From positions 102,663-166,662 of the forward strand of contig JBBTSM010000003.1 of NCBI GenBank assembly GCA_038064675.1: 64,000 bases of DNA, given 5' to 3'. Shown here in pieces: positions 6,019-64,000 of the stretch. Positions within the stretch are counted from its first letter, which is position 1; every line of letters begins with the position of its first letter. The DNA comes from Patescibacteria group bacterium. GTDB lineage: Bacteria > Patescibacteriota > Patescibacteriia > UBA9934. Under the pieces are notes generated by a model. That model saw only the letters and a list, made by a program, of their open reading frames with translations, was not told the origin of the DNA and did not search any database. The position numbers and the translations under genes are program-made.

Positions 6019-6049
6019 AAAAAATACAGCTGATGTCAGCTGTATTTTT
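6019..6049 (+). terminator. rho-independent terminator AATACAGCTGA-TG-TCAGCTGTATTTTT
   Basis: 11-bp stem plus T-run. Confidence 0.55.
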
Positions 6050-6098
6050 CGTTGAGGCCACAAGGGAATAGAACTTTTGTGTTAAAATTCAACACAAT

Positions 6099-7101: not shown

Positions 7102-7125
7102 CGTCGTGTATTAGCCCCTGCTACG

Positions 7126-7156
7126 AAAAACACAGCTGACATCAGCTGTGTTTTTT
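7126..7156 (+). terminator. rho-independent terminator AACACAGCTGA-CA-TCAGCTGTGTTTTTT
   Basis: Nearly the same hairpin as at 6019-6049. Confidence 0.55.
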
Positions 7157-34200: not shown

Positions 34201-37200
34201 ACTTCCGGTGTATGTTCCTCCAGAAAGAGTCAAACCAGCATCAAATGTTTGCGTGGCCGATCCGCCCGTGTAGGTTCCGCCGGAGACAGTCGTCAAACCC
34301 GTGCTTGTGGTCGTCTGCCCGTTAGCATCGTACGTTCCCGACGAAATAGCCAAAGTACCAGCGATAACTTTTGCCCCAGCCGATTGGACAATATCTGCCG
34401 CATCCGTCGTAGCAATGGTGAGGTTGTAGTAATCCGTTGCTCCAAAATCTTTCAACGTGTAGGTATCGGCAGCAGCGTCCCCATCACCAAGGTAGATCCA
34501 GGCTCCCGAATCCGTATCCTGCGTCAAAGAAAGAGATTCTGATCCGATCAAACGAACCGTGTCGCTGTTGCTAAACGTTCCCGTCACGGTAAGACCAAAA
34601 CCCGCCAAGGAAAGAATACCGTTACTAACGGTAAGATTTTCCGCGATCGATGTGGTGGCGGGCAAGGTAAACACCGTCGTCGCCGCCGTCCCGTCGATCA
34701 CGACATTTTTATAGCCGGAATAGTTTTTCAGGGTATAAGGACCAGATGTACCGTAGTAATAAATCGTACTCCCCGCATCCCATTGCGGATACGAAGCGCC
34801 GGTTGTGGTAATTGTCTCTCCCCCTTGGAGCTTCAAGGTTCCTCCGGCGTTGATGATCAGCTTTGAACTTGACGCATTCATGTTGATTGTATTCCCGTTC
34901 AAATCAAGCGTTCCGTTTACTACCGTAACCGTTGTTGTATTTCCGTCATCTAGGGAGGAGTCAAGAATCAAGGAACCGCCGGATTTATCAATGGTGAAGT
35001 TTCCAAGTGCCTTTGCACTTGATTCTGTAAAATGTTGTGTTCCTGATCCGTAAAAACCTACTGTTGCTGCTGAACTAGCAATACTCGCACCCACAGTCAT
35101 ATTTCCGTACAACTGAAATGTCCCTTCTGCAGGTTTCGTCGTTTGCGCAATCACTCCGTTGGTTCCCCCGAGTGATAAATTACCAAGAACAATTAAGGAG
35201 TCACTATTTGAAATAGTTGTTGTGTTGGTGCTCGTCGGATTGACAGAAAGAGTATAGAAAGTCTCCGTGAAATTAACGTTGATCGTTGGGTTTGACCCGT
35301 TCATGCTGACGGATCCATTGTTGTGGTTGAAGATTCCCCCCGCGGTATGCGTCCAGCTCCCGTTAACCGTCATGGTTGCTGTTGTTGCGTTGAATGTTCC
35401 TCCAGCAATAACAACAGAACCGAGAGTAACGCTCGACGCCCCAAAGTTGATTGTTCCGCCATTATGGGTATAGGTACTATTTGGAGTAAAGCCAAGGTCG
35501 GCGGTATTCCAAGTTCCGTTAGTGAACGTAAACGTTCCGACGGTGATCGCTGTTGATTGCGTAACGGAACCAGCACTTTTATCTATGGTGAATGTTCCCG
35601 AGAATCCCGAAGGAATGCTCCACACTTGATCCGCTGTGCCCGTCAAAGAAATTGTCCTCGAACCAGGGAAGGAACTCCCACTTCCAGTAATATCTCCCCT
35701 TAACTCAAGCGTTGCTGCCAACGCACCGCCACCAGCGTTACTAAAATTAAATGTGTGCGCGATAATTAACGTCCCTCCGGTAACGGTTCTTGTATTTGAA
35801 TTTGTGACGGAGAATGTCGCGTTGTAAAAAATATCTTGATCAACAACCGTAATGGTCGAGCTTCCACCCGTTGATGAAAACGTACCGCTTCCGTGGTTAT
35901 AGGTTCCGCCGGAATGAGTCCACGTTGTCGAGATAGCTGTCGTTCCACTGGTTGCTGTGTAGGTACCACTAGAAAGCGTGTACGTGGAGTGCGTCACCGT
36001 GTCGCTTCCTCCGGTAAAGATTCCGCCGGATTGGTTGTAGGCTCCGGAAAAAGTCATGGCGTATCCGGTTGCGTCGATCGTTCCCGCCTGAAGGTTTACT
36101 GCGCTAAATGTGAGAGTTCCTGTACCCGTTCCGCTGAAGGTAAAATTGGCGTTGTTGAGCGTCACCGTGCTGGCGAGCGCGGCTTGTCCGCCGTTGAGCG
36201 GGAGGTTCTGGGTGTTGGTGCCGTCGATAAGAAGTATGCCGCCTCCACCATCCCATCCAGAATTGAGCGAAATGGTACTCGTTGCCTCGACCGTACCCGT
36301 TCCAAAACCACCGTTGGTAAGGGTGAGCGTACCGGTAGCAACAAGTGTATCTCCAGATGAAACGGTCAATAACGTCGAACCATTTTTCGCAAGCTCAAGG
36401 TTATTAAATGTTTCTGTTGTCGCGACGTTTGTTGTAGAAGCTGAACCGGAAAACCTTACAGAACCACTGTTGTGGGTAAATGTTCCCGTGCCAGCCGTAT
36501 GCGTAAACCCGGCGCTAAAAGTGGTTGTCCCACTCGTAGCGGTATACGTCGCTCCTGGGCCACTCAGCGTAAAAGCGCCGGTGTGGGTTACTGCATTGAT
36601 TCCACCAACAAAGACACCATTGGATGATTGATCAAATGTGGAACTAAAGGTTGTCGTGCCCGAACCGGACGTTGGGGCATTGTAGGTTCCTCCGCTTAAA
36701 GCAACCGCCCCCGAAAACGTCACGGTTGCGGTGTTGGCATTAAAGGTACCCGCAGACATGGTCAATGCTCCCACTGCAACCGTTCCTGTACCAGATGTGT
36801 TAACCGTAGCGCTCGTGTTTGTGACGCTCAGGTTTACAGCCGTATTTCCTGAAGTAAGTGTTGCTGTAACGGTGGCTGATCCTCCAAGAAGAAGCGTTCC
36901 TGTTCCTCCATCAAACGTAGAGGCCCAACTTGTTGTTCCACGCGCGTCCCAGGTTCCGGTCGTCAGGTTACCGTCGGTAAGCGTGCTCGTACCAGTCACA
37001 ATCATCGTATCTCCAGAGGCAATCGTAAGACTCGTTGCTGTGGTTTTATTGAGCGTGACGTTATTAAACGTTTCACTAGTGGCGAAATCAAATGTTCTTG
37101 TACTCCCCCCTGTAATATTCACAGCACCACTTGCTTGAGAGAACGTTCCCGTTCCGGCTGTGTGGGTGAAGTTACTACTAAAAATTGTTGTGCCGATACT

Positions 37201-37662
37201 TGCGGTATAAGACGCCCCCACTCCACTAAACGCAAAAGCGCCCGTATGGGTCACCGTCTGATTGCCTCCGGTAAAGGTACCCGCTGTTTGTGTATATGCA
37301 CCGGTAAACGTGAGCGCGTCCGTACTTCCATTAAATATCGCCGCTCCTGCAAAAGTGGTGACACCGCTTACCGTAAACGAACGAGCCTGCGTAATTGTTC
37401 CAGTATACCCAGAGTTAATGTTGAATGTCGTCACGCCAGTAGTAAAGCTTGCATCGATGGTGGCGTCCTTTGTGGACGTCGCATCAAAGGTGGCGATATC
37501 GGCCGTTGTTGGTGCCGTATCAAGGGACCAGTTAAAACGATCACTCCAATTATTTGTTGAACCTCCGCCGTCCCATGTTCTCGTGGCGGCCATAGCGGAA
37601 TGAACGGAGACAAAAAAGAACATCCCAAAAACGAGGAATGTCCCGAAGAGATATTTCAGCAT
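28246..37662 (-). CDS. giant (~3138 aa) adhesin-like surface protein: signal peptide, PATR/autotransporter-type beta-helix repeats, ~14 tandem ~100-aa Calx-beta/cadherin-like repeats, a Gly14 linker, the shared C-terminal module and a TSP3-like tail
   Basis: Start at internal MLKYLFGTFLVFGMFFFVSVHSAMA. PATR signature TWDGGGSTNNWSDRFNW. Repeat unit VSVISGNTTEAGGTATFTIVL...VTITGVDD. GGGGGGGGGGGGGG stretch. Ends DGDGYTDYIEILNGFDPYTVAPRP. Confidence 0.65.
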   Translation of the reverse strand: MLKYLFGTFLVFGMFFFVSVHSAMAATRTWDGGGSTNNWSDRFNWSLDTAPTTADIATFDATSTKDATIDASFTTGVTTFNINSGYTGTITQARSFTVSGVTTFAGAAIFNGSTDALTFTGAYTQTAGTFTGGNQTVTHTGAFAFSGVGASYTASIGTTIFSSNFTHTAGTGTFSQASGAVNITGGSTRTFDFATSETFNNVTLNKTTATSLTIASGDTMIVTGTSTLTDGNLTTGTWDARGTTSWASTFDGGTGTLLLGGSATVTATLTSGNTAVNLSVTNTSATVNTSGTGTVAVGALTMSAGTFNANTATVTFSGAVALSGGTYNAPTSGSGTTTFSSTFDQSSNGVFVGGINAVTHTGAFTLSGPGATYTATSGTTTFSAGFTHTAGTGTFTHNSGSVRFSGSASTTNVATTETFNNLELAKNGSTLLTVSSGDTLVATGTLTLTNGGFGTGTVEATSTISLNSGWDGGGGILLIDGTNTQNLPLNGGQAALASTVTLNNANFTFSGTGTGTLTFSAVNLQAGTIDATGYAMTFSGAYNQSGGIFTGGSDTVTHSTYTLSSGTYTATSGTTAISTTWTHSGGTYNHGSGTFSSTGGSSTITVVDQDIFYNATFSVTNSNTRTVTGGTLIIAHTFNFSNAGGGALAATLELRGDITGSGSSFPGSRTISLTGTADQVWSIPSGFSGTFTIDKSAGSVTQSTAITVGTFTFTNGTWNTADLGFTPNSTYTHNGGTINFGASSVTLGSVVIAGGTFNATTATMTVNGSWTHTAGGIFNHNNGSVSMNGSNPTINVNFTETFYTLSVNPTSTNTTTISNSDSLIVLGNLSLGGTNGVIAQTTKPAEGTFQLYGNMTVGASIASSAATVGFYGSGTQHFTESSAKALGNFTIDKSGGSLILDSSLDDGNTTTVTVVNGTLDLNGNTINMNASSSKLIINAGGTLKLQGGETITTTGASYPQWDAGSTIYYYGTSGPYTLKNYSGYKNVVIDGTAATTVFTLPATTSIAENLTVSNGILSLAGFGLTVTGTFSNSDTVRLIGSESLSLTQDTDSGAWIYLGDGDAAADTYTLKDFGATDYYNLTIATTDAADIVQSAGAKVIAGTLAISSGTYDANGQTTTSTGLTTVSGGTYTGGSATQTFDAGLTLSGGTYTGSSGTADVNGTLTLTTGTFTAPTLTTISGNFIKGAATFTHNSGTVTFDANANHSITGSPSWNSLTLQDSSDNATDVVLTIEAGSTQTINGTLTLDGLDASDRLNIVSSSPTTASTFDFEGTSSFSGDYLDITDSIVTDNSSGVSAPINPANSVEGTNTTNWFSSTPAGITVSAISGNTTEAGATATFTIVLDTQPASDVVIGISSNDTSEGTVSAASLTFTNANWSTPQTITVTGVNDDLDDGDIAYSIITAAATSADGNYDSLNAADVSVTNTDNDTSGFTVSVISGDTTEAGGTATFTIVLNAQPTASVSIDLSSNDTTEGTVSPSSLTFTTGNWSTPQTVTITGVDDVVIDGNISFSIVTAAAVSDDLLYNAMNPSDVTVVNDDNDVAGVTVSVISGNTTEAGATATATIVLTAQPTADVSVAISSSDSTEGTVSPASVTFTSGNWSVPQTITVTGVNDDLDDGDIAYSIVTAAATSADLNYDGINPANIAVTNTDNDTSGFTLGAISGNTTEAGGTATFTIVLNAQPTASVSVGLTSNDTTEGTVSPSSLTFTTGNWSTPQTVTVTGVDDLIDDGDVVYAIVTAAATSADTNYNGINASDESVTNTDNDTASATASAISGHTSEDEVATATFTVVLTAQPTADVTIPLSSSDATEGSVGVASLTFTSGNWSTPQTVTVTGVNDYLDDGDVSYSALLGAITSADSAYSGLNPADVTIVNDDDDISGFSVGAISGNTTEAGGTATFTIVLNAQPTASVTIDLSSSDATEGTVVASTSFTTGNWNTPKTITISGVDDVIDDGTVAYSIITAAATSSDTNYNGLNPSDVSVSTTDDDTAGITVGTISGNTTEAGGTATFSIVLDTQPTTDVTVGFSSSDTTEGTVQTSKTFTSGNWNTPQTVTVTGVNDDLDDGDIAFTIVTAAASSADSPYNGLNPGDISATNTDDDVSGFTFGAISGDTTEAGGTATFTIVLNAQPTASVTIGLTSSDLTEGTVSPASLTFTTGNWSTPQTVTATGANDSTIDGNIVYAIVTSAATSDDLLYNGINPSDVSVTNTDDDVAAATIGAISGDTTEAGATATFTIVLNTQPTADVTFDISSSATNEGTVLPATVIFTSENWNAPQTITVTGVDDGAVDGPVAYSIVLGAATSADTNYNALDPADVSVINTDNDAVGVSVSPSSGNTTEAGGTATFTVVLNSQPSADVTIPLSSSNEAEGMLSTLSLTFTSGNWSIPQTITMTGMNDVVVDGDVVYAVVLGAMTSTDPAYSELNPTDVSVTNTDNDAASVLVTQSGGASAVTEVGATDTYTLVLSAQPSSDVTVNLTAAAPVATDVSILTFTSGNWNTPQTVTISVTDDVIAQGTHTHSIDHTTYSSDVLFDALVVVSVSVQVADNDVAGITVGAISGNTSEAGATATFTLVLTSEPIADVRIDISSSDATEGTVSASTATFTSVNWNVPQTITVTGIDDVVNDGTVAYNIILATAVSVDAVYAAINPADLSLSNTDNDTPGFTVVQSEDATAVTEGGAQDAYTIVLKSQPTANVSVFMIGDGDVTTSVSQLTFTAENWSTPQAVTVSAVDDSTIEGAEVHSILHVVSSADSTYAALTIEGVPVTVTDNDPVSTGESGGGGGGGGGGGGGTSTSPTISLRKPTANATYGFGAMSVTWVWTGSIPAVNVYLSLDGGATWALQRYFVTNTGSTTITLDQATTTAEVRIEGTDFIQVLARSVSDTFIVSASASTTSNVDPGTIVDDSTASGAAIAEIAARVASLPASVEIHSLVKLSDDSNAESQYDTTVYYVGADGYRHAFPNPHVYDSWFCSEDHVTVLTPSEMASMPIGPNVTYRPGSRLVKFITDPRVYAVDSDGSLRWVLSETDATTIYGSDWNKKVDDIQDVFYRNYHFGAVLTDLAWRAESIYNLVSYPSDVMHVPGYAVTPGLTNACATSEPVTPTIAAPLDSSSTLDSDGDGYTDYIEILNGFDPYTVAPRP
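29540..33830 (-). repeat. about 14 tandem ~300-bp intragenic repeats inside the giant adhesin gene
   Basis: Tandem protein repeats, plus a run of mutually similar antisense ORFs on the plus strand between 29546 and 33826. Confidence 0.6.
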
Positions 37663-37763
37663 ATTTTTCACATGGTTGGATGGCCAGATAATACCGGTTT
37701 CGTGGCTGCTCGAATACCACGTTATACACATAAAATTACAGGATCGAGATACACTACTCGCAT

Positions 37764-38375
37764 ATGGCATCATGGAGCCCCCAAGAACGCTCAATCCTTC
37801 GAGCGCTCTCCACCCCGGCGAAAATTCAAGACTTCTTGAACGGCCTTCGATTCCGGATTATCGGCAAGAATGAGACATGCCATTCCCCTCGTCTGGTGAT
37901 GCGGTATCGGGAAGCACAATGCGTTGAAGGTGCGATGTTTGCGGCGGCCGCGCTCCGATTCCACGGCTATCGACCGCTCATCGTCGATCTCGTTTCTACC
38001 GCACAGGACCAAGACCACGTCATCGCGGTCTTCCAGATTAATGGGCACTGGGGAGCGATATCAAAAACAAATCACGGCGTGCTCCGATATCGCGAGCCTA
38101 TTTACCGATCGATTCGCGAGCTCGTGATGAGTTACTTTCACGAATACTTCCTCCAATCGAATCGGAAAAAAACTCTCCGAAGTTTTTCGAAGCCCGTTGA
38201 TCTCACCAGATTTGATCACCAAGGATGGGAAACAAGTGAAGAACCGATTTGGTATATTCCAGAATACCTCTTATCGATTCCCCACTCACCAATTCTGAAC
38301 CGATCCCAAATTGCACGATTACGTCTAGCCGACCCCATCGAGGCGCAGATGACGGAAATCGTGGAGTGGGAATGA
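37764..38375 (+). CDS. transglutaminase-like cysteine peptidase superfamily protein, transcribed divergently from the giant adhesin
   Basis: EAQCVEGAMFAAAALRFHGYRPLIV...DHVIAVF fits the Cys-His-Asp transglutaminase-like core. Confidence 0.4.
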   Translation: MASWSPQERSILRALSTPAKIQDFLNGLRFRIIGKNETCHSPRLVMRYREAQCVEGAMFAAAALRFHGYRPLIVDLVSTAQDQDHVIAVFQINGHWGAISKTNHGVLRYREPIYRSIRELVMSYFHEYFLQSNRKKTLRSFSKPVDLTRFDHQGWETSEEPIWYIPEYLLSIPHSPILNRSQIARLRLADPIEAQMTEIVEWE

Positions 38376-38723: not shown

Positions 38724-39035
38724 TTATGCGATCGACTGAATGGTGATCTTGGTCCAAGGCTGACGATGACCAACGTTGCGGCGGTAACGGGTCTTTGGCT
38801 TGTACTTGATAACCGACACCTTTTCGGCACGACCGTGCTCAGAGATAACTGCGGTGACCTTTGCGTCCTTTACTGTTGGGGTTCCAACTTTGACGGTTGC
38901 GCCGTCATCAGAAGCCACGAGCAATGCGTCAAAGGTCATTGAAGCACCAACCTCAAGGTCGATCTTTTCTACGCTGAGCACCTGGCCCTCGCGGACGATG
39001 TGCTGTTTTCCACCTGCGGTAATGACTGCAAACAT
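38724..39035 (-). CDS. rplU: 50S ribosomal protein L21
   Basis: MFAVITAGGKQHIVREGQVL...KYKPKTRYRRNVGHRQ. Confidence 0.85.
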   Translation of the reverse strand: MFAVITAGGKQHIVREGQVLSVEKIDLEVGASMTFDALLVASDDGATVKVGTPTVKDAKVTAVISEHGRAEKVSVIKYKPKTRYRRNVGHRQPWTKITIQSIA

Positions 39036-39049
39036 AGAATATAGAGAAC

Positions 39050-39160
39050 TTCCTCATTTGGCCTATTTTCGACTCACGTCTTCGCAAACTTGCTCAACGC
39101 ACCATGAAGTACGCCTCGCAAGCTTTGCTCGCCGTTCATCGAAACTAGTCTCAAATGTGA
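39050..39160 (+). repeat. copy 1 of a ~110-bp MITE-like intergenic element with terminal inverted repeats CCTCATTTGG / CAAATGAG; sits upstream of rplU
   Basis: About 88% identical to copy 2. Same orientation relative to the downstream gene in all four copies. Confidence 0.55.
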
Positions 39161-39185
39161 AAGTTCTGTTAGATTTGTGCTGCTG

Positions 39186-41807: not shown

Positions 41808-43157
41808 TTACACAACAAGCGGTAAATCGCGCCACACCTTTTCGTCGCCGCGCAGTAACGATTCCACGCGATACGCTCCATGTGTTGGGGCATTCGTAAA
41901 TCCGCTCCACGCCATACGCGCGAGCGCCCCGCTCTCGATCCAATCGAATAACCACTCATTCATATACTGCGGCGCAAGACCATCAGCGCCTCCCCCAACG
42001 TACGTCAGCCACGCGCGATTAAAGTCTTCTTGGCTTCCAACCGTTGGCGCCATGATGATTGGAATTGCTAAGCCGGTGTAGAACGAAAGCTCGGACGGCT
42101 TCGTCCAAAGAATATCCGTCTTGCGCATCAATTTTGAAAACGCAGAAAAATACGCGGGACGATTGTCTTCAAAAAGAATGGTAACTTTTCCTGCACGCTT
42201 TGCACTTACCAATCCATCCAAACGAATCTCGCGTTCAAAGAATTCGTTCACTTCCGGTCGCGTTCCCGCAACAAGGTTCACGATGATTCGTCCAGCACGA
42301 ATATCCCCAGCTAACGATCGAAGCGCGAGAGCCACGACCTCGCGCTGCGTGCCCGCACCGCCAACCGCAAACGTAATCGATGGCGTGGTCGGTTTCACCG
42401 CACAAAACTGTTTTCCGAATGTTGCGTCGAGAAGTGAATGTGCTTTAGCAACAAAATTTCCATGCGGATCAAGATTGCACATGCGTCGTTGTAAATCCGC
42501 GCGCACATATTCTGGAACGTGCGGGCCACCAACCGTTTCAAATGGCAACGGGAATCCTGTCAGCGTAATGTTCTTTTCTTTCACGCCGTACAACTTCAAT
42601 CGCTCAACGACTCGTCCGGTTGGTGCCAAGTATTTGATTCTGCTCTTCTTCGGATTAAGGGGCACCCAAGCTCTTGCGATATCTGCATCACAAAGCACGA
42701 TGTAAATATCCTCAGGATAATCGAACTCCTCTGCGGCAAATGCGGGAGTGAAGAATGTAGAAACAATCGGCAGCGGCCGTTCCTTGAATCGTTCGATGAG
42801 ATCGCGACACATCCCTTGCCGACGAATCAGTGCGTACGTTTGCCGAACCTGCAGGCTTGGTTTCGAAAGATCACGACGCGGATAAAACTCCGGAATACGC
42901 TGCATCTTATCCATGATGCCGAATGCCGTCGTCCCGAGGATTGGGACGTTCTTAAATCGTGAAACAAATTCGTAAAAACTCTTCCCCGTTTCCCAAAGCC
43001 TTCGCTCATGCGCCGGAATGCCAGGATAATCATTTGCCACCGTTACTTGCCCACCAGGAGCAAGGTGCCGCAACGCAAACGCGGCCCGCTCGTGGCCATA
43101 ACCCATATTGACCGCAACAACGTGCGCCAATGCTTTCCCCCTTATTTTCTCCTCCAT
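41808..43157 (-). CDS. hypothetical protein, possibly a GT-B glycosyltransferase
   Basis: N-terminal VAVNMGYGHERAA resembles the G-x-GH motif of MGDG-synthase/UgtP-like enzymes. Weak evidence. Confidence 0.3.
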   Translation of the reverse strand: MEEKIRGKALAHVVAVNMGYGHERAAFALRHLAPGGQVTVANDYPGIPAHERRLWETGKSFYEFVSRFKNVPILGTTAFGIMDKMQRIPEFYPRRDLSKPSLQVRQTYALIRRQGMCRDLIERFKERPLPIVSTFFTPAFAAEEFDYPEDIYIVLCDADIARAWVPLNPKKSRIKYLAPTGRVVERLKLYGVKEKNITLTGFPLPFETVGGPHVPEYVRADLQRRMCNLDPHGNFVAKAHSLLDATFGKQFCAVKPTTPSITFAVGGAGTQREVVALALRSLAGDIRAGRIIVNLVAGTRPEVNEFFEREIRLDGLVSAKRAGKVTILFEDNRPAYFSAFSKLMRKTDILWTKPSELSFYTGLAIPIIMAPTVGSQEDFNRAWLTYVGGGADGLAPQYMNEWLFDWIESGALARMAWSGFTNAPTHGAYRVESLLRGDEKVWRDLPLVV

Positions 43158-43167
43158 ACGCTTAGGG

Positions 43168-43280
43168 CTTCCTCATTTGGTCTATTTTCGACTCACTTCG
43201 TCGCAAAATCGCTCAACGTACCATAAAGTACGCCTCGCGATCTTTGCTCCTCGTTCATCGAAACTAGCCTCAAATGAGAA
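43168..43280 (+). repeat. copy 2 of the MITE-like element, upstream of gene 41808..43157
   Basis: Aligned to copy 1. Confidence 0.55.
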
Positions 43281-43305
43281 ACCCCTAATTTGAATAAATC
43301 ATATC

Positions 43306-48035: not shown

Positions 48036-48600
48036 ATTGCGTAGGAGGGTGCTCGAATGTAATCAACGGCATGTGGTTTTTCATGATGTCCTGCGGAATA
48101 CCGAGCTCTTCGAGATACACGGTAGAGACCTCACAGAACTTTGCGTCGGCGTAATTGAATCCAAGAAGTTCCGACGCCGTGCGAACCGTCGCCTCGTCGT
48201 GCGCTTCGACCTCAACAAACGGTCGGAGACCCGGCCATGTGTCGATCGTCACCTCCGCACCGTTCAACATCCATGCCTCGCGCAATGTTTCTTGATACGC
48301 CTTCTTCTCCGCGCCGATTGCCGACAAGAAATCCACAGCGTTGTCGAAATCATCAACCGTCACCATCACTTCTTTCTGATCCTCAATTGCACTACCATTC
48401 ACCACCTTCAACGACATCGTAATCGTCTCCCCCTCGTCGCGAACCCGCATCCAGCCGCCAGGAATAGCAATCGGCGGGTTAAACACCGTTCGCCGCATCA
48501 ACGATTCCTTTTTTACAAGCGTTCCGCCGACTTCGTGAAGCTTTGCCCGTACGGCGCTTTTATCGATCCCCGTAAATGTGGCCTCGAATTCGATTTGCAT
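48028..48600 (-). CDS. CYTH-domain protein (CyaB / thiamine-triphosphatase-like)
   Basis: Internal Met MQIEFEATF matches the N-terminal ExExK/F motif of CYTH. Confidence 0.45.
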   Translation of the reverse strand: MQIEFEATFTGIDKSAVRAKLHEVGGTLVKKESLMRRTVFNPPIAIPGGWMRVRDEGETITMSLKVVNGSAIEDQKEVMVTVDDFDNAVDFLSAIGAEKKAYQETLREAWMLNGAEVTIDTWPGLRPFVEVEAHDEATVRTASELLGFNYADAKFCEVSTVYLEELGIPQDIMKNHMPLITFEHPPTQYV

Positions 48601-48688
48601 AGAATATCCTTGAGGATAGCGCCCCCACGCTCTTCTTGCCAGGGCGCTCTTCAACATGATACGATTCGGCCGTTCTTTTCTGAGTTTT

Positions 48689-48764
48689 GCCGAAATAGCT
48701 CAGCTGGTAGAGCAACGGTTTTGTAAACCGTAGGTCACCGGTTCGAATCCGGTTTTCGGCTCCA
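48689..48764 (+). tRNA. tRNA-Thr (anticodon TGT)
   Basis: Perfect cloverleaf: GCCGAAA...TTTCGGC T CCA; anticodon loop TTTGTAA. Confidence 0.8.
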
Positions 48765-48765
48765 G

Positions 48766-48851
48766 GGGTTGGTACTCAAGCGGTCAACGAGGAGAGACTG
48801 TAAATCTCTTGGCTTGCGCCTTCGAAGGTTCGAATCCTTCCCAACCCACCA
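48766..48851 (+). tRNA. tRNA-Tyr (anticodon GTA), long variable arm
   Basis: GACTGTAAATC anticodon arm; TTCGAAGGTTCGAATCCTTC T-arm; encoded CCA. Confidence 0.8.
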
Positions 48852-48853
48852 TC

Positions 48854-48978
48854 AGAAAAGCTCATAAAATTGCCCAGGGCGTTGTCGTCGCCTTGCGCCC
48901 CGTCCTCACCGTACACTGTGGTACGCCTCGGACGGTGCTCGGCTCCTCCTAGCCCTGAACAATTTTATGAGCTTTTCT
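48854..48978. repeat. a perfect 19-bp inverted repeat (AGAAAAGCTCATAAAATTG / CAATTTTATGAGCTTTTCT) flanking an ~88-nt GC-rich core, directly after tRNA-Tyr
   Basis: Read directly. Could be a MITE-like insertion or a structured RNA. Confidence 0.5.
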
Positions 48979-49044
48979 CATTCACTTTGTGCCGATTCGT
49001 AAGAATTTGAAATGATAAGACCGGAAAAAGTGCTAAGTTTGCGT

Positions 49045-49105
49045 AGTGCTAGGAGCGGCGAGGATCGCAGCGAAACGTACTTCACGGTACGTTGAGCGAG
49101 AACCG
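49045..49105 (-). repeat. copy 3 (core only) of the MITE-like element, upstream of tRNA-Thr(GGT)
   Basis: GTACTTCACGGTACGTTGAGCG matches the reverse complement of the core of copies 1 and 2. Confidence 0.45.
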
Positions 49106-49149
49106 GAGCAAGCAACAACGCAATACGCAAACTTGGGCACATTTTCCCC

Positions 49150-49225
49150 GCCGCAGTAGCTCAGATGGTAGAGCGCATCCATGGTAAGGATGAGGTCTCG
49201 GGTTCGATCCCCGACTGTGGCTCCA
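49150..49225 (+). tRNA. tRNA-Thr (anticodon GGT)
   Basis: GCCGCAG...CTGTGGC T CCA; anticodon loop ATGGTAA. Confidence 0.8.
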
Positions 49226-49228
49226 CAA

Positions 49229-49258
49229 AACATCGACCAATCGGTCGATGTTTTGTTT
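49229..49258 (+). terminator. terminator AACATCGACC-AAT-CGGTCGATGTT plus T-run
   Basis: Read directly. Confidence 0.55.
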
Positions 49259-49375
49259 TAGCGCCTTCTTTACTTTCCCCCATTTTTCTGCCTATACTTC
49301 CCCGTCATGCTTTCGAGCCTGACAGCCCCGTGGCGAGGTTTCGCCGATTGTCCGCGTACAAAATCAGGAGCAGCC

Positions 49376-49954
49376 ATGCTCATCTCGCTTCTTCTCGGTC
49401 TCGCCCTCGCGCCCGAGGCGTCGGCAGCCACGCTGTCGCCGCAAATCCTCATGAAGGTCCACAGCCGGATCCACCTCGAGGGAGACGGCGACTGGGACTT
49501 CGGAGTATTCACAAGCGGGTTGATGATCACGAGCGGATCCCCCCTGTCCTTCTGGTACGTCGGCCCGGGAAAGCAGATCACCCCGTGGTGGTGGTCGAGC
49601 GTTCGTCCCGGCATCGTGTTCAACTTCCCGACCGGGGGCGACGCGATGCCCATCATCTCCTGGTGGAATTCGCTTGATCCCACGGATGATTTCTCGTTCT
49701 TCCTGGAGGGCGACTACTACCCCGTCAGCCTGAAGGGCAGCGATCCCATCTACTACGGGTACTACGGCGCAAGCTACACGCCGAAGATCTTCGACCTGGG
49801 CGTGCAAGCTGAACAGGTAAACCTAAGCCTGACGGCGGGCCCGCACGCCCTCATCAAGCTGGGCAAGTTCATCACCACCGGGGCGGAGTACTACTGGGAC
49901 TTCAAGAAAGGCCACACCGTCCGCATCATCTTCGACGTTGGAGCAGACATGTGA
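49376..49954 (+). CDS. secreted hypothetical protein, aromatic-rich; first gene of the GC-rich islet
   Basis: Internal Met preceded by a CAGGAG Shine-Dalgarno. Signal peptide MLISLLLGLALAPEASAATLS. Confidence 0.45.
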   Translation: MLISLLLGLALAPEASAATLSPQILMKVHSRIHLEGDGDWDFGVFTSGLMITSGSPLSFWYVGPGKQITPWWWSSVRPGIVFNFPTGGDAMPIISWWNSLDPTDDFSFFLEGDYYPVSLKGSDPIYYGYYGASYTPKIFDLGVQAEQVNLSLTAGPHALIKLGKFITTGAEYYWDFKKGHTVRIIFDVGADM

Positions 49955-50027
49955 CGCACCGCCCTCGGTGGCCGGCCACACGGGCCGTCCTCAGTGGGCG
50001 GTTTCGTGTTTTCAGCACCTTGTTTAA

Positions 50028-50056
50028 TTGATTCTTTCGTCATTTCCGTCTACAAT
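50028..50056 (+). promoter_or_regulatory. promoter TTGATT-17-TACAAT followed by the conserved leader GTTTGGTCCGCTCCTTCG
   Basis: Paralogous to the element at 50743-50772. Confidence 0.4.
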
Positions 50057-50131
50057 GTTTGGTCCGCTCCTTCGAGCCGACAACCTGCAGCGAGGATTCG
50101 TTGCTCCATTCTCACACCGCAGAGGTGCCCT

Positions 50132-50668
50132 TTGACGCATTTCATTTCAGATCTTCTTCTTGTTTGCTCCACCGACGAGGCAGAGCATTTCCTTCAGCCC
50201 ATGCTCAACGCGGCACTCGACGTCGTCCTGCCGCTGGCCCAGGTTCTGGACCCCACCGATACGGGCGTCGTGTTCATGTTCTGGCGCATCGGCGACGACG
50301 GGCACAGACCGCTCGTCGTGCTCCGCGGCGGCAATGTGTCGCCCGAGAAGGACGGCTGGTACATGGAGAACGCCATGCGGAAGCTGGCCGCGCTCGCGGA
50401 CAACCCGGGCATCGTCTCCACGGCCGAGGTCGCCAATCCGACCGTCGAGCTCTTCGGCGGCGGCACGCGGCTATTCGACGGGCGCCTCGCCTACATCTCC
50501 GCGGGCCTCAACTCCTGGTTCGACGAAATGGTGGACTGCATCATGGCCTGGAGCATCGGCCACACGACCGTAGCGGAGATGCGCCGCGTGGCGGAGATCA
50601 GTAAGAACCCGCATCTCAACGCCTACCTCGACGACCTCGAAGGGAAGCTCCGAAGAGTGCGACAGTAG
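50132..50668 (+). CDS. hypothetical cytoplasmic protein, paralog A (TTG start, MTHF...)
   Basis: High GC3 in this frame. Homologous to 50847..51386 from the first residues onward. Confidence 0.45.
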   Translation: MTHFISDLLLVCSTDEAEHFLQPMLNAALDVVLPLAQVLDPTDTGVVFMFWRIGDDGHRPLVVLRGGNVSPEKDGWYMENAMRKLAALADNPGIVSTAEVANPTVELFGGGTRLFDGRLAYISAGLNSWFDEMVDCIMAWSIGHTTVAEMRRVAEISKNPHLNAYLDDLEGKLRRVRQ

Positions 50669-50683
50669 CGCACGACAACGCAG

Positions 50684-50720
50684 CCCCGCGACGAGAGCCC
50701 CACGCTCCGGCGCGGGGTTT
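50684..50720 (+). terminator. conserved terminator CCCCGCG-ACGAGAGCCCCACGCTCCGG-CGCGGGG plus TTT
   Basis: An ~75-nt block duplicated at 51400-51436. Confidence 0.45.
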
Positions 50721-50742
50721 CTCAGTTTTAAGGAATTATTCG

Positions 50743-50772: not shown

Positions 50773-50846
50773 GTTTGGTCCGTTCCTTCGGGGCCGGGCC
50801 AGGGGCGAACCATCGCTCAGAAACGTATCGTCTAGGAAGGGCTCCA

Positions 50847-51386
50847 ATGACCCCGTACGAACTCATCGATTCCAACGGACCCGAAGCCGAAGTAGCGCTG
50901 CTCGCTGCATTCACACACGCGCTCGGTTGCGTGCTCCCGCATGTGGCTTCCCCCGCCGGGTCAAACGACCCGGAGGTGCTCCTCGCCTTCTACCGGTGGG
51001 AGTCCAAGGATCACGAGCCGAAAGCGTTCCATAGGCGGGCATTCGTCAGCAACGAGGCAGTCCCCAGCGGCTCCGTTCGAGGGCACATCGCGGCCACTGT
51101 CCCGATTGCCCAGGCATTCGGCAGCTACCATCTGGGCGCCTCGTCCCTCCAGGGTCGGGATGAAGCTGCCGGAGTGCTCGGTGGTGGGGTGCGCATCAAC
51201 CGCGATTTCGTCTTCATCACCACCGGCAAAATTCCTGAGTGGGCCCGGGAGATGGTCTCCATCCTGACGGCGGTGAAGCTCGAGCTCTTGAGCCCTATCC
51301 AAGCCCGTCTGATCGCACTCGCCAGCGACAACACACATCTCCTTCGCCACACCTTCGCCCAGGCTGAAACGGAAAAGGAAGGATAG
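50847..51386 (+). CDS. hypothetical cytoplasmic protein, paralog B (MTPY...)
   Basis: AGGAAGG Shine-Dalgarno 6 nt upstream. Shares blocks with paralog A: PEAE/DEAE, VLP, GGG(V/T)R, EMV. Confidence 0.45.
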   Translation: MTPYELIDSNGPEAEVALLAAFTHALGCVLPHVASPAGSNDPEVLLAFYRWESKDHEPKAFHRRAFVSNEAVPSGSVRGHIAATVPIAQAFGSYHLGASSLQGRDEAAGVLGGGVRINRDFVFITTGKIPEWAREMVSILTAVKLELLSPIQARLIALASDNTHLLRHTFAQAETEKEG

Positions 51387-51399
51387 TGCGACAACGCAA

Positions 51400-51436
51400 C
51401 CCCGCGACGAGAGCCCCACGCTCCGGCGCGGGGTTC
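51400..51436 (+). terminator. second copy of the conserved terminator block
   Basis: Aligned to 50684-50720. Confidence 0.45.
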
Positions 51437-51501
51437 TCTGATTTTAAGAAAAATTGTTCTTTCCCCGATTTTTTGCTACGATTCCCCCTTCAAAACTTCC
51501 T

Positions 51502-63823: not shown

Positions 63824-63947
63824 ACCCGGTTCGCTTCGTTTCCGATAGAAGCAAAAACTCAAACCGAGTGCATGAAGATATTCGTGCCCTCAGTGCGAGA
63901 TATCGCAGATTCACAATACAAAAGTCACTCGAACAGAGAACGTTCCA

Positions 63948-64000
63948 CATTTAGACTAGTTTCGGTGCGCGTCGAGCAAAGCTCGCGAGACGTACTCAAG
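63948..64000 (-). repeat. copy 4 (partial, truncated by the window end) of the MITE-like element
   Basis: CATTTAGACTAGTTTCGGTGCGCGTCGAGCAAAGCTCGCGAGACGTACT aligns to the reverse complement of copies 1 and 2. Confidence 0.45.

What the first reader, a model, noticed from the sequence alone, without database searches (positions are those of the whole stretch)
48854..48978. An inverted-repeat-flanked ~88-nt GC-rich element sits where glyT lies in the classic thrU-tyrU-glyT-thrT tRNA operon
The order here is tRNA-Thr(TGT), tRNA-Tyr(GTA), then about 300 nt, then tRNA-Thr(GGT). In the E. coli-type thrU-tyrU-glyT-thrT cluster a tRNA-Gly occupies that gap. Instead there is a perfect 19-bp inverted repeat (AGAAAAGCTCATAAAATTG ... 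CAATTTTATGAGCTTTTCT) that starts 3 nt after the tRNA-Tyr CCA and closes an ~88-nt GC-rich core with internal pairing potential. Partial copy 3 of the MITE-like element follows it. It could be a MITE-like insertion that displaced or destroyed glyT, or a structured RNA or processing element co-transcribed with the tRNAs.
Basis: partly seen in the sequence, partly recalled or inferred. Interest (0 to 1): 0.55.

Follow-up and report, generated by a model that had tools for sequence, protein, structure and literature searches.

The report
Widespread structured hairpin repeat beside tRNA-Tyr
The inverted-repeat element after tRNA-Tyr is not a wrecked tRNA-Gly; it is one copy of a ~125-base hairpin-forming repeat, absent from Rfam, that occurs in at least ten bacterial phyla, keeps its fold by compensatory mutations, and abuts tRNA genes always by the same end.

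Summary
A perfect 19-bp inverted repeat (48854-48872 / 48960-48978) begins 2 nt after tRNA-Tyr and encloses 87 nt.

The element (D, 48852-48982) is a complete, diverged member of the same family as the "MITE-like" copy that follows it (C, 49020-49148). Copies A (39041-39170), B (43160-43289) and the truncated E (63937-64000) also belong.

All copies share an invariant apical module, C-GA-RRCGUAC-N6-GURCGKU-GA-G, on top of a ~125-nt hairpin. The outer stems differ completely in sequence but always pair.

The 26-nt core occurs in more than 114 loci, labelled with ten phylum-level groups. These include Patescibacteria, Nitrospirota, Acidobacteriota and Geobacter. Rfam 15 has no match. [quoted passage not shown]

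D sits at the same site in four Patescibacteria genomes, none of which has a tRNA-Gly there. It is 90% conserved where third codon positions of the neighbouring gene are 49.5% conserved. Fourteen of its 46 pairs show compensatory changes.

Nineteen of 124 copies abut a tRNA gene, always by the same end. How the element works is inferred, not shown: a strand-specific single-strand hairpin, either mobile, retained as gene-boundary punctuation, or both.

The parts
48852..48982 (-). Element D, the finding: a complete ~130-nt family copy. The purine-rich-loop ('GA') strand is the minus strand, antisense to the tRNA operon.
   Evidence: Covariance model R1 scores 86.4 bits, E 1.5e-21, model positions 1-130. 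The fold is -75.9 kcal/mol, z = -11.2. Orthologues in four genomes are 98.9% paired, and 14 of 46 pairs show compensatory changes.
48854..48872 (.).
   Evidence: Exact match; 0 of 100 shuffles gave a match.
48960..48978 (.). Outer-stem arm 2 of D.
   Evidence: Exact reverse complement of arm 1.
48905..48930 (-). Invariant apical module of D: CGAGGCGTACCACAGTGTACGGTGAG. It is a 5-bp CGUAC/GUACG helix closed by R.U and R.K pairs and a tandem GA/GA internal loop.
   Evidence: Pattern match with 0 mismatches. There are four matches in the window against 0.03 expected.
49020..49148 (+). Element C: a complete family copy. Its GA strand is in the tRNA sense, and its 3' end lies about 1-4 nt from tRNA-Thr(GGT).
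   Evidence: R1 scores 71.9 bits. It is 93.1% identical to the L020 orthologue, with three C-G to U.G changes that keep pairing only on the + strand.
48983..49019 (.). AT-rich spacer between the 5' ends of D and C, which lie head to head. It is not conserved.
   Evidence: 40% identity to L020, against 90-93% for the elements. No promoter-like site was found.
39041..39170 (-). Element A: a family copy whose 3' end lies about 9 nt upstream of the rplU start codon (39035). The SD-like GAGGAAG lies inside its 3' arm.
   Evidence: R1 scores 103.3 bits. The L21 Pfam match covers residues 1-102 of the ORF 38724-39035. Sequence.
43160..43289 (-). Element B: a family copy 89% identical to A. Its 3' end lies about 6 nt upstream of the ORF 41808-43157 (DUF6938).
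   Evidence: R1 scores 112.3 bits. See repeat family D8.
63937..64000 (+). Element E: the 5' half of a family copy, cut off by the end of the window.
   Evidence: 60-nt inverted match to A at 80% (pair I1). The sequence shows ...GCAAAGCTCGCGAGACGTAC at the window end.
48766..48851 (+). tRNA-Tyr(GTA). Its CCA end lies 2 nt from the 3' end of D's GA strand.
48689..48764 (+). tRNA-Thr(TGT), the first gene of the cluster. It lies 1 nt from tRNA-Tyr. Relatives have a further family copy in this gap.
49150..49225 (+). tRNA-Thr(GGT), preceded by C.
49225..49256 (+). Perfect 14-bp hairpin followed by a T run: the likely terminator of the tRNA cluster.
   Evidence: Inverted repeat I4. 94.6% conserved in L020.
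48636..48665 (+). Sigma-70-like promoter match upstream of tRNA-Thr(TGT). This is a consensus match only.

Best explanation
What it is (shown). Positions 48852-48982 are a complete, diverged copy of a multi-copy family of ~125-nt imperfect palindromes. Each copy folds, as a single strand, into one long hairpin. At the apex is an invariant module, C-GA-RRCGUAC-(6 nt)-GURCGKU-GA-G. Lower down are conserved purine-rich internal loops (…CNAGG… on the 5' side, …RAC… on the 3' side). The stems between them differ freely in sequence between copies and lineages but always pair.

The window holds five copies (A-E). The family occurs in more than 114 loci labelled with ten phylum-level groups. D is an old resident of its site. 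It lies 0-2 nt after tRNA-Tyr in four Patescibacteria genomes, and there its fold has been kept by compensatory substitutions under stronger constraint than the neighbouring protein gene. It is not a remnant of tRNA-Gly.

How it most likely works (inferred). The functional form is the single-stranded hairpin of the purine-rich-loop ('GA') strand. The invariant apical helix with its tandem G.A pairs is probably the recognition site for a conserved, still unknown protein. The long stem supplies only structure.

The family spreads or is lost copy by copy: related genomes have 2, 3 or 4 copies in the same tRNA cluster. Copies settle with fixed polarity, the 3' end of the GA strand against the end of a tRNA gene or ORF.

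My preferred reading is a non-autonomous, structure-dependent repeat in the manner of REPIN or ERIC elements. It would be propagated through a hairpin intermediate, and resident copies would be retained by selection as gene-boundary punctuation. When transcribed, in either orientation, such a copy gives a dsRNA stem of about 20-27 bp. That is long enough to be an RNase III-type processing or stability signal in the tRNA precursor.
For: Family membership and structure.
- The core motif occurs four times in the window against 0.03 expected.
- R1 scores 72-112 bits for A-D and nothing else above noise.
- In a 40-sequence alignment, 81.2% of cells pair against 58.1% after shuffling (0 of 500 shuffles reach it). 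Slid controls give 35-43%. The covariation score is 0.562 against 0.179, and 30 of 37 pairs show changes on both sides.

Distribution.
My own estimate of the chance expectation is about 4.
- Hits lie on contigs and chromosomes of up to 4.6 Mb from Terriglobia, Nitrospirales, Parcubacteria and Rokubacteria.

Constraint on D and C.
- Against L020, D is 90.1% identical and C 93.1%. The spacer between them is 40%.
- The adjacent CYTH gene is 75.3% identical in nucleotides and 49.5% at third codon positions.
- D orthologues in four genomes are 98.9% paired. Fourteen of 46 pairs show compensatory double changes, against 1-2 in the slid controls.

Strand specificity.
- The GA strand folds better in every copy.
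- D orthologues have 12 G.U cells against at most 2 non-standard cells.
- C has three C-G to U.G changes that pair only on the + strand.
- Internal loops hold G 596 and A 566 against C 309 and U 215.

Gain and loss. The same tRNA cluster holds 2 copies in the window, 3 in L020, and 4 each in L116 and L051.

Polarity. Nineteen of 124 copies abut a tRNA gene within 12 nt, all by the 3' end of the GA strand. Fifteen are sense and upstream of a tRNA 5' end; four are antisense at a CCA end. The four tRNAs next to the 5' end (21-27 nt away) all belong to copies lying between two tRNAs. ORFs show the same trend: 32 against 20 within 25 nt.

No tRNA-Gly. None is found in the window gap or in the clusters of relatives.
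Against: - No partner protein was found. The 150 flanking ORFs gave 165 Pfam families with no transposase, RT or recombinase among the 25 most frequently matched families listed. The 25 families listed for the window were all housekeeping.
- No conserved target sequence or target-site duplication could be defined at the junctions.
- Orientation relative to genes is mixed: 32 antisense/antisense, 17 sense/sense, 13 convergent, 12 divergent. A simple sense-strand cis-regulatory RNA does not fit.
- No expression data are available, so RNA versus single-stranded DNA is undecided.
- The G.U over A.C excess across the whole family is only 116 to 77.
- Strong constraint at orthologous sites is unusual for a purely selfish repeat.
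- RNase III processing is inferred from stem length and from published behaviour of Correia elements (review PMC10969869). It was not tested.
Confidence: 0.6

Rival explanations
1. Host cis-acting RNA element only. D and C are processing or stability hairpins of the polycistronic tRNA precursor, for example RNase III sites that separate tRNA-Tyr from tRNA-Thr(GGT). They would have multiplied by duplication, with no mobility mechanism of their own.
For: - The elements are under strong purifying selection with compensatory changes at orthologous sites.
- Copies abut tRNA 5' and 3' ends within 0-12 nt in many genomes.
- Every tRNA of the L116 and L051 clusters is preceded by a sense copy.
- Continuous duplexes of 19-27 bp are long enough for RNase III.
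- A and B sequester an SD-like GAGGAAG 10-13 nt before start codons.
Against: - The strand favoured by the conserved G.U pairs in D is antisense to the tRNA operon.
- Across 114 loci the GA strand is more often antisense than sense to its neighbours.
- A core identical in ten phylum-level groups next to unrelated genes is hard to explain without horizontal spread or a universal binding partner.
Confidence: 0.22
2. Classical selfish MITE of the ERIC type. It would be mobilised in trans by a DDE transposase that duplicates TA, and the hairpin would merely reflect its terminal inverted repeats. No host function.
For: - The size is about 125 bp, against 127 bp for ERIC.
- It is an intergenic imperfect palindrome found in either orientation.
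- Many copies begin and end with TA (TAGAAC...GTTCTA, TAGAGG...CCTCTA).
- Presence/absence differs between relatives.
- ERIC has the same apex design: CCAG-GA-GCTTAC-ATAA-GTAAGT-GA-CTGG.
Against: - The terminal repeats are not conserved in sequence between lineages. The centre is, which is the reverse of what a TIR-recognising transposase predicts.
- Orthologous copies evolve more slowly than first and second codon positions of the neighbouring gene.
- No transposase is enriched nearby.
- Homology to ERIC is not supported: CM 11 bits, which is the noise level; BLAST E of at least 0.2, equal to the reversed control; nhmmer 0.7 bits.
Confidence: 0.1
3. Independent small-RNA genes. Each copy would be a ~125-nt hairpin RNA transcribed from its own promoter, so that D and C are divergent genes. 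The GA-strand RNA would act in trans or bind a protein.
For: - There are strand-specific signatures: G.U pairs and purine-rich loops.
- The apical module is invariant.
- Aklujkar et al. 2009 annotated the Geobacter relatives as predicted short RNA elements (PMC2700814).
Against: - There is no positional enrichment of -10-like hexamers upstream of the 5' end compared with the control side.
- The D-C spacer is 40% conserved and holds no promoter-like match.
- In L051 only 27 nt separate the two head-to-head copies, too little for two promoters.
- No terminator follows the elements.
Confidence: 0.06
4. Degenerate tRNA-Gly, or the scar of a glyT deletion.
For: Only the position, by analogy with the E. 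coli thrU-tyrU-glyT-thrT cluster. This rests on background knowledge of that cluster, not on a test made here.
Against: - Neither ARAGORN nor Rfam (E up to 10) finds anything tRNA-like in the gap.
- The gap is fully accounted for by two complete family copies plus a 37-nt spacer.
- Three related genomes lack tRNA-Gly there as well.
Confidence: 0.02

Closest known systems
[quoted passage not shown] 2009, PMC2700814, Additional file 4)
   Same: These are intergenic multi-copy sequences of about 110-115 nt with a central palindrome, GRCGTAGCGCTGCTACGCC. Two members carry GCGTACC..GGTACGC.

Their reverse complements fold into the same long hairpin and are more stable than the listed strand. They share the boxes AGAUCAAGGC, GGAGGCGUA[GC] and ACGCAGAGAU with the Geobacter-type copies found here. 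The authors gave no function.
   Different: The 3' side of the apex reads CUACGCSCACAAG instead of GUACGUUGAG, so my 26-nt pattern does not catch them. They were described in one family of bacteria only, as a supplementary list. The hairpin fold, covariation, cross-phylum spread and tRNA polarity were not noted.
ERIC / IRU (enterobacterial repetitive intergenic consensus, ~127 bp)
   Same: Both are intergenic imperfect palindromes of nearly the same length. Both occur in either orientation, are cotranscribed with neighbours, and fold as RNA hairpins. The ERIC apex has the same design: a 6-bp helix closed by a tandem GA/GA loop. According to the review PMC10969869, ERIC at the 3' end of genes changes mRNA decay through RNase E.
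   Different: No significant sequence or profile similarity was found. ERIC is reported only from Enterobacteriaceae and Vibrionaceae, and its whole sequence is conserved, termini included. Here only the apex and loops are conserved, and the stems covary.
REP / BIME / REPIN elements with RAYT (Y1 HUH) transposases
   Same: They are hairpin-forming, non-autonomous and strand-asymmetric repeats. They are thought to move through a single-stranded hairpin recognised by a single-copy host-resident enzyme, and they persist vertically for long periods (PMC3116915 and PMC3733652, listed).
   Different: REPs are 20-40 nt and carry a GTAG or CGTC tag at one end. REPINs are doublets of such units, with the conserved sequence in the stem. 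Here there is a single 125-nt hairpin with the conserved sequence at the apex. No RAYT was seen near any copy.
Correia / NEMIS elements of Neisseria
   Same: They are intergenic inverted-repeat elements of 100-155 bp. They are cotranscribed with genes, and their RNA hairpins are cut by RNase III (PMC10969869). This is the model for the processing role proposed here.
   Different: They are restricted to one genus and have conserved 26-bp TIRs. I know of no sequence relation; this last point rests on my own knowledge and was not tested.
Integron attC sites
   Same: They are imperfect palindromes of 57-141 nt. They are defined by the structure of one folded DNA strand rather than by sequence, and they lie at the 3' end of genes in a fixed orientation.
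   Different: attC sites conserve the terminal R''/R' boxes (RYYYAAC / GTTRRRY), not the centre. They occur in cassette arrays next to an integrase. None of this is seen here.

Membership tests
Long-hairpin repeat family defined here (includes Geobacter Gmet_R10xx-like elements) | Apical module CGARRCGTAC-N6-GTRCGKTGAG on the purine-rich-loop strand | tested here: met
   D matches at 48905-48930 (-) with 0 mismatches.
Long-hairpin repeat family defined here (includes Geobacter Gmet_R10xx-like elements) | A single ~125-nt hairpin with the family's pattern of helices and internal loops | tested here: met
   R1 scores 86.4 bits over model positions 1-130. The MFE is a single hairpin with z = -11.2.
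Long-hairpin repeat family defined here (includes Geobacter Gmet_R10xx-like elements) | Stems that covary while the loops stay conserved | tested here: met
   See for the family and for the D orthologues, where 14 of 46 pairs are compensated.
ERIC / IRU | Sequence similarity to the ERIC consensus | tested here: not met
   CM 11 bits (the noise level), BLAST E of at least 0.2 (equal to the reversed control), nhmmer 0.7 bits.
ERIC / IRU | An intergenic imperfect palindrome of about 127 bp that folds as an RNA hairpin | tested here: met
ERIC / IRU | TA target-site duplication | tested here: inconclusive
   Many copies end in TA...TA. The filled/empty site pairs available are too diverged to define a duplication. 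D itself has AGAAAAG...CTTTTCT ends flanked by TC and CA.
REP / REPIN-RAYT | A 20-40-nt palindromic unit tagged by GTAG or CGTC, with doublets forming the hairpin | tested here: not met
   The element is a single unit with its conserved sequence at the apex, and it has no terminal tag.
REP / REPIN-RAYT | A Y1 (RAYT) transposase gene in the genome, flanked by the repeats | not testable with these tools
   None appears among the 25 most frequently matched Pfam families listed for the 150 flanking ORFs, nor among the 25 listed for the window. Whole genomes were not available.
Classical MITE | Terminal inverted repeats shared with an autonomous IS, plus a target-site duplication | tested here: not met
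   The terminal arms differ between A/B, C and D and between lineages. No related IS or transposase was seen.
tRNA / pseudo-tRNA (glyT remnant) | A cloverleaf detectable by ARAGORN or the Rfam tRNA model | tested here: not met
   There is no hit in 48852-49149, even at E up to 10.
Integron attC | R''/R' core sites RYYYAAC...GTTRRRY, a cassette array, and a nearby integrase | tested here: not met
   The ends of D, C, A and B do not fit these sites. The copies lie 4-15 kb apart among housekeeping genes.
Intrinsic terminator | A short G+C-rich stem followed at once by a T run | tested here: not met
   The terminator scan of 48300-49500 does not flag D or C.
Any Rfam 15 family | A score at or near a family's gathering threshold | tested here: not met
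   Tested on the window, on 18 loci at the gathering threshold, and on 8 loci at E up to 1. Only generic microRNA-hairpin models far below threshold overlap the elements.

The most novel reading that the evidence does not exclude
The family is a strand-specific, structure-defined element. Its invariant GA/GA-closed apical helix would be the docking site for a conserved, unidentified protein. Copies are placed with fixed polarity against the ends of tRNA genes and ORFs in at least ten bacterial phyla, including the tiny genomes of Patescibacteria.

Two readings are open. One is a new class of hairpin-dependent (single-stranded DNA) mobile element that targets gene boundaries. The other is a widespread cis-acting 'punctuation' RNA module for tRNA and mRNA processing that has escaped cataloguing.
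Probability: 0.35. Interest if true: 0.8.

Novelty: new variant of a known kind. Interest (0 to 1): 0.62.

Why it matters
Dispersed hairpin repeats such as REP, ERIC and Correia are regarded as lineage-restricted. A family with a 26-nt core that is identical from Patescibacteria to Acidobacteriota, Nitrospirota and Geobacter is not expected. Neither are freely covarying stems, constraint stronger than on neighbouring coding DNA, or a fixed polarity toward tRNA gene ends.

Such a family points to a conserved partner, either an enzyme or an RNA-binding protein, that could be found by phyletic profiling or pull-down.

It also matters in practice. Several tRNA-cluster spacers in small Patescibacteria genomes consist largely of these elements. 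They will confuse operon, promoter and terminator prediction, and they are not in Rfam.

Tried and rejected
- **Rfam.** I searched at gathering and at permissive thresholds on the window and on 26 loci. Nothing matched.
- **tRNA-Gly remnant.** No signal.
- **Hammerhead and K-turn.** I considered both readings of the core by eye. CUGAUGA is absent, CGAAAC is present only in copy C, and there is no 3-nt bulge next to the G.A pairs. Rejected.
- **ERIC homology.** The architecture is similar, but the CM, BLAST with a reversed-database control, and nhmmer with shuffles all fall at noise level.
- **attC.** The terminal core sites are absent.
- **Own promoter.** There is no positional enrichment of -10-like hexamers upstream of the elements, and no promoter match in the D-C spacer.
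- **Associated mobilisation gene.** The flanking ORFs of 114 loci and all window ORFs gave only housekeeping families among the 25 shown in each scan.
- **Phage carriage.** The core pattern has zero matches in 2.9 million viral contigs.
- **Literature search by sequence strings.** This found only primers.
- **Chunjie MITE of Geobacter.** It is 178-235 bp with 9-bp direct repeats, so it is a different element.
- **Alignment.** A gapless alignment anchored on the core failed beyond about 6 nt because helix registers shift. MAFFT over all hits failed for RNAalifold. A curated 40-sequence subset worked.
- **Target motif or TSD at junctions.** None was evident.
- **Exact look-up of the CYTH ORF.** It failed because the listed ORF start was too far upstream. 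The homologue search solved this.
- **Repeats at 50673 and 51389.** They share CGACAACGC with the family but are ordinary terminator-like hairpins.
Full report
**1. The observation**

ARAGORN and Rfam place tRNA-Thr(TGT) at 48689-48764, tRNA-Tyr(GTA) at 48766-48851 and tRNA-Thr(GGT) at 49150-49225. The 19-mer AGAAAAGCTCATAAAATTG occurs once on each strand, at 48854-48872 and 48960-48978. None of 100 shuffles gave a match. The repeat extends to 30 nt at 90% complementarity. The region folds into one long hairpin. The energy is -63 kcal/mol on the + strand (z = -9.4) and -75.9 kcal/mol on the - strand (z = -11.2).
- The arms enclose 87 nt, not 88.
- Two nt separate the CCA end from the repeat.
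- The next element is a complete copy, not a partial one.

**2. D belongs to a family**

Reading the other repeats of the window showed that element D, the element that follows it (C, 49020-49148), and the repeats at 39041-39170 (A), 43160-43289 (B) and 63937-64000 (E, cut by the window end) share a 26-nt centre. In one orientation this reads CGARRCGTAC-N6-GTRCGKTGAG. The pattern occurs four times in the window against 0.03 expected.

Around this centre the sequences of A/B, C and D are unrelated, yet each forms a ~125-nt hairpin. In each of the four complete copies (A-D) the strand that carries the motif as written folds better. On that strand the apex is a CGUAC/GUACG helix. It is extended by R.U and R.K pairs and closed by a symmetric tandem GA/GA loop. 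I call this the GA strand. It is the minus strand for A, B and D, and the plus strand for C and E.

**3. Distribution**

By my own calculation about four hits are expected by chance (38 bits of information against 1.2e12 positions).

The record titles name ten phylum-level groups:
- Patescibacteria (Uhrbacteria, Saccharibacteria, Parcubacteria)
- Geobacter and other former Deltaproteobacteria
- Nitrospirota
- Acidobacteriota (Terriglobia)
- Gammaproteobacteria
- Planctomycetales
- Rokubacteria
- Elusimicrobia
- Nitrospinota
- Bacillota

Several hits lie on contigs or chromosomes of 1-4.6 Mb, and some genomes have many copies. Every hit sits at the apex of a long hairpin. The pattern has no match in 2.9 million viral contigs.

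**4. Structure and covariation**

A curated 40-sequence alignment (A3) gives a 37-pair consensus hairpin. On it 81.2% of cells pair, against 58.1% after shuffling (0 of 500 shuffles reach the observed value) and 35-43% when partners are slid. The covariation score is 0.562 against 0.179. Thirty of 37 pairs have changes on both sides. Apart from the apex, a few loop positions are nearly invariant, such as C and G in ...CNAGG... and A in ...RAC.... Internal loops on the GA strand are purine-rich: G 596 and A 566 against C 309 and U 215. G.U pairs outnumber A.C pairs 116 to 77.

A covariance model built from A3 (R1) finds exactly A-D in the window, at 72-112 bits. D scores 86.4 bits with E = 1.5e-21. 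Nothing else rises above noise.

**5. What D is not**

- There is no tRNA-like signal in the gap, even at E up to 10.
- Rfam 15 has no family for these elements, in the window or in 26 loci from different phyla.
- The terminator scan does not flag D or C.
- The termini do not fit attC core sites.
- The 150 ORFs flanking the elements fall into 165 Pfam families. No transposase, RT or recombinase appears among the 25 most frequently matched families listed; the most frequent is GroEL, at 4 of 150. The 25 families listed for the window are all housekeeping.

**6. Orthologous comparison**

The neighbouring CYTH gene is 100% identical to a protein labelled 'Patescibacteria group bacterium'. Three related genomes carry the same CYTH-tRNA neighbourhood:
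- L020, Ca. Uhrbacteria, CALRAI010000001
- L116, Ca. Uhrbacteria, CALRGY010000009
- L051/L117, Patescibacteria, JBBUEW010000022

None has a tRNA-Gly in the cluster. All have the D orthologue 0-2 nt after tRNA-Tyr in the same antisense orientation. All have the C orthologue directly before tRNA-Thr(GGT).

Against L020 the identities are as follows:

| Region | Identity to L020 |
|---|---|
| tRNAs | 99-100% |
| Element C | 93.1% |
| Element D | 90.1% |
| D-C spacer | 40% |
| CYTH gene, amino acids | 78.9% |
| CYTH gene, nucleotides | 75.3% |
| CYTH gene, third codon positions | 49.5% |

The elements are thus under stronger constraint than coding DNA. Gene conversion between copies cannot explain this, because the stems of D and C are unique to their sites.

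Across the four D orthologues 98.9% of cells pair. Fourteen of 46 pairs carry compensatory double changes, against 1-2 in the slid controls. There are 12 G.U cells against at most 2 non-standard cells. In C, the three stem substitutions against L020 are all C-G to U.G, which pair only on the + strand. In both elements, selection therefore acts on the GA strand. For D that strand is antisense to the tRNA operon.

**7. Gain, loss and polarity**

The same tRNA cluster holds two copies in the window, three in L020 and four in L116 and L051. The window has a 1-nt Thr-Tyr junction where L020 and L116 have about 150 nt of element plus a 5' tail. The window and L020 lack the copy that L116 has upstream of tRNA-Thr(TGT).

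Over all loci, 19 of 124 motif-bearing copies abut a tRNA gene within 12 nt. At least twelve different tRNA species are involved, and the loci include Nitrospirales and Gammaproteobacteria. In every case the abutting end is the 3' end of the GA strand. Fifteen copies are sense and upstream of the tRNA 5' end. Four are antisense against the CCA end, as D is. The only tRNAs next to the 5' end are 21-27 nt away, and they belong to copies lying between two tRNAs. Crude ORF calls show the same tendency: 32 tight contacts at the 3' end against 20 at the 5' end. In the window, A and B end 9 and 6 nt before the start codons of rplU and a DUF6938 gene, with an SD-like GAGGAAG inside the 3' arm.

Orientation relative to neighbouring genes is otherwise mixed. 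No promoter signal precedes the elements. No target motif or duplication is evident at the junctions.

**8. Comparison with known elements**

The only earlier record I found is in the Geobacter metallireducens genome paper (PMC2700814). [quoted passage not shown] Their reverse complements fold as the same hairpin, are more stable than the listed strand, and share the AGAUCAAGGC, GGAGGCGUA[GC] and ACGCAGAGAU boxes. I take them as a sister subfamily. I could not score them with the model.

ERIC/IRU of enterobacteria is the closest named element in form. It is 127 bp, intergenic, found in either orientation, and has an apex closed by GA/GA. It is described as restricted to Enterobacteriaceae and Vibrionaceae. 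Homology is not supported: the CM gives 11 bits (noise), BLAST gives E of at least 0.2 (the same as a reversed control), and nhmmer gives 0.7 bits.

REP/REPIN-RAYT, Correia and attC elements resemble the family in principle. They are strand-specific hairpins, RNase III substrates, and structure-defined sites respectively. Each fails a defining feature; see the membership table.

**9. Mechanism**

Shown:
- D is a member of the family.
- It has a conserved single-strand fold.
- It carries GA-strand signatures.
- It is under purifying selection at an orthologous site.
- Copy number differs between relatives.
- Copies have a fixed polarity toward gene ends.

Inferred:
- The apical module is a protein recognition site.
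- Copies arise through a hairpin intermediate.
- Resident copies are kept because the hairpin serves at gene boundaries. As a transcribed duplex of 19-27 bp it is a plausible RNase III-type processing or stability signal in the tRNA precursor. A and B could also mask ribosome-binding sites.

RNA versus single-stranded DNA cannot be settled without expression data. The antisense placement of D and the mixed orientation elsewhere argue against a purely sense-strand regulatory RNA. The strong constraint argues against purely selfish DNA.

**10. Verdict**

The finding is real and more interesting than a local oddity, though not in the way first proposed. It is a new, uncatalogued and unusually widespread variant of the known kind 'dispersed hairpin-forming intergenic repeat'. 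It was previously glimpsed only as an unnamed list in Geobacter.

Noticed in passing
window 28246-37794 (-): A giant 3182-aa ORF built from at least 13 tandem units of about 336 nt (112 aa) at 60-80% identity (families D1-D7). The window Pfam scan also lists Big_5 and TSP3_bac hits, but they were not assigned to a particular ORF. Probably a cell-surface protein.
   Followed up: no
window 39045-39053 and 43164-43175 (- strand), 3' arms of A and B: The SD-like GAGGAAG that precedes the start codons of rplU (39035) and of the DUF6938 gene (43157) by 10-13 nt lies inside the basal stem of the hairpin. The ribosome-binding sites would therefore be sequestered unless the hairpin is opened or cut.
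   Followed up: partly
L116 1164-1913; L051 4382-5116; L020 2580-3103: In related Patescibacteria the Thr/Tyr/Thr tRNA cluster is packed with 3-4 family copies. In L116 and L051 every tRNA is immediately preceded by a sense copy; in L020 two of the three are. In all three, tRNA-Tyr is immediately followed by an antisense copy.
   Followed up: yes
L020 3104-3124, L116 1682-1704, window 49000-49019: AT-rich tails of about 20 nt precede the 5' end of tRNA-cluster copies: TTGAATATTGA, TTGAATACTAA, ATTGAGAATAAT, TTTGAAATGATAAG. They look alike. They could be part of the element or a tRNA trailer. No -10 box sits at a fitting distance.
   Followed up: partly
L015, L017, L065 (MGSF01 Deltaproteobacteria), 3' arm of the element: Some copies carry an extra small hairpin (…AACGAAGTAGCCCCTCTTTATGGGGCAACGCCGCAG…) nested in the 3' arm. 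This suggests a secondary insertion or an expansion segment.
   Followed up: no
window 50673-50735 and 51389-51451: Two terminator-like hairpin modules, 87% identical (CCCCGCG...CGCGGGG followed by a T-rich run), lie 716 nt apart after the paralogous ORFs 49994-50668 and 50775-51386. This is a tandem gene duplication. They are not family members.
   Followed up: partly
window 6019-6052 and 7123-7156: Two 34-nt sequences are 94% complementary to each other, and each is itself palindromic (AAAAAATACAGCTGATGTCAGCTGTATTTTT). They flank a 1.07-kb segment and look like bidirectional terminators.
   Followed up: no
window, ORF not located (Pfam Topoisom_I + Top1B_N_bact): The window encodes a bacterial type IB topoisomerase, an enzyme mechanistically related to tyrosine recombinases. 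No link to the repeats was tested.
   Followed up: no
L115 109-236 (E. coli ERIC between ybhJ and ybhI): The apex of ERIC (CCAG-GA-GCTTAC-ATAA-GTAAGT-GA-CTGG) has the same design of a helix closed by tandem GA as the family studied here, although no homology could be shown.
   Followed up: yes
L024 1403-1468 (-): A near-threshold match to the Rfam int-alpA RNA (35.5 bits against a gathering score of 35.8) in an Acidobacteriota contig. It is unrelated to the repeat.
   Followed up: no
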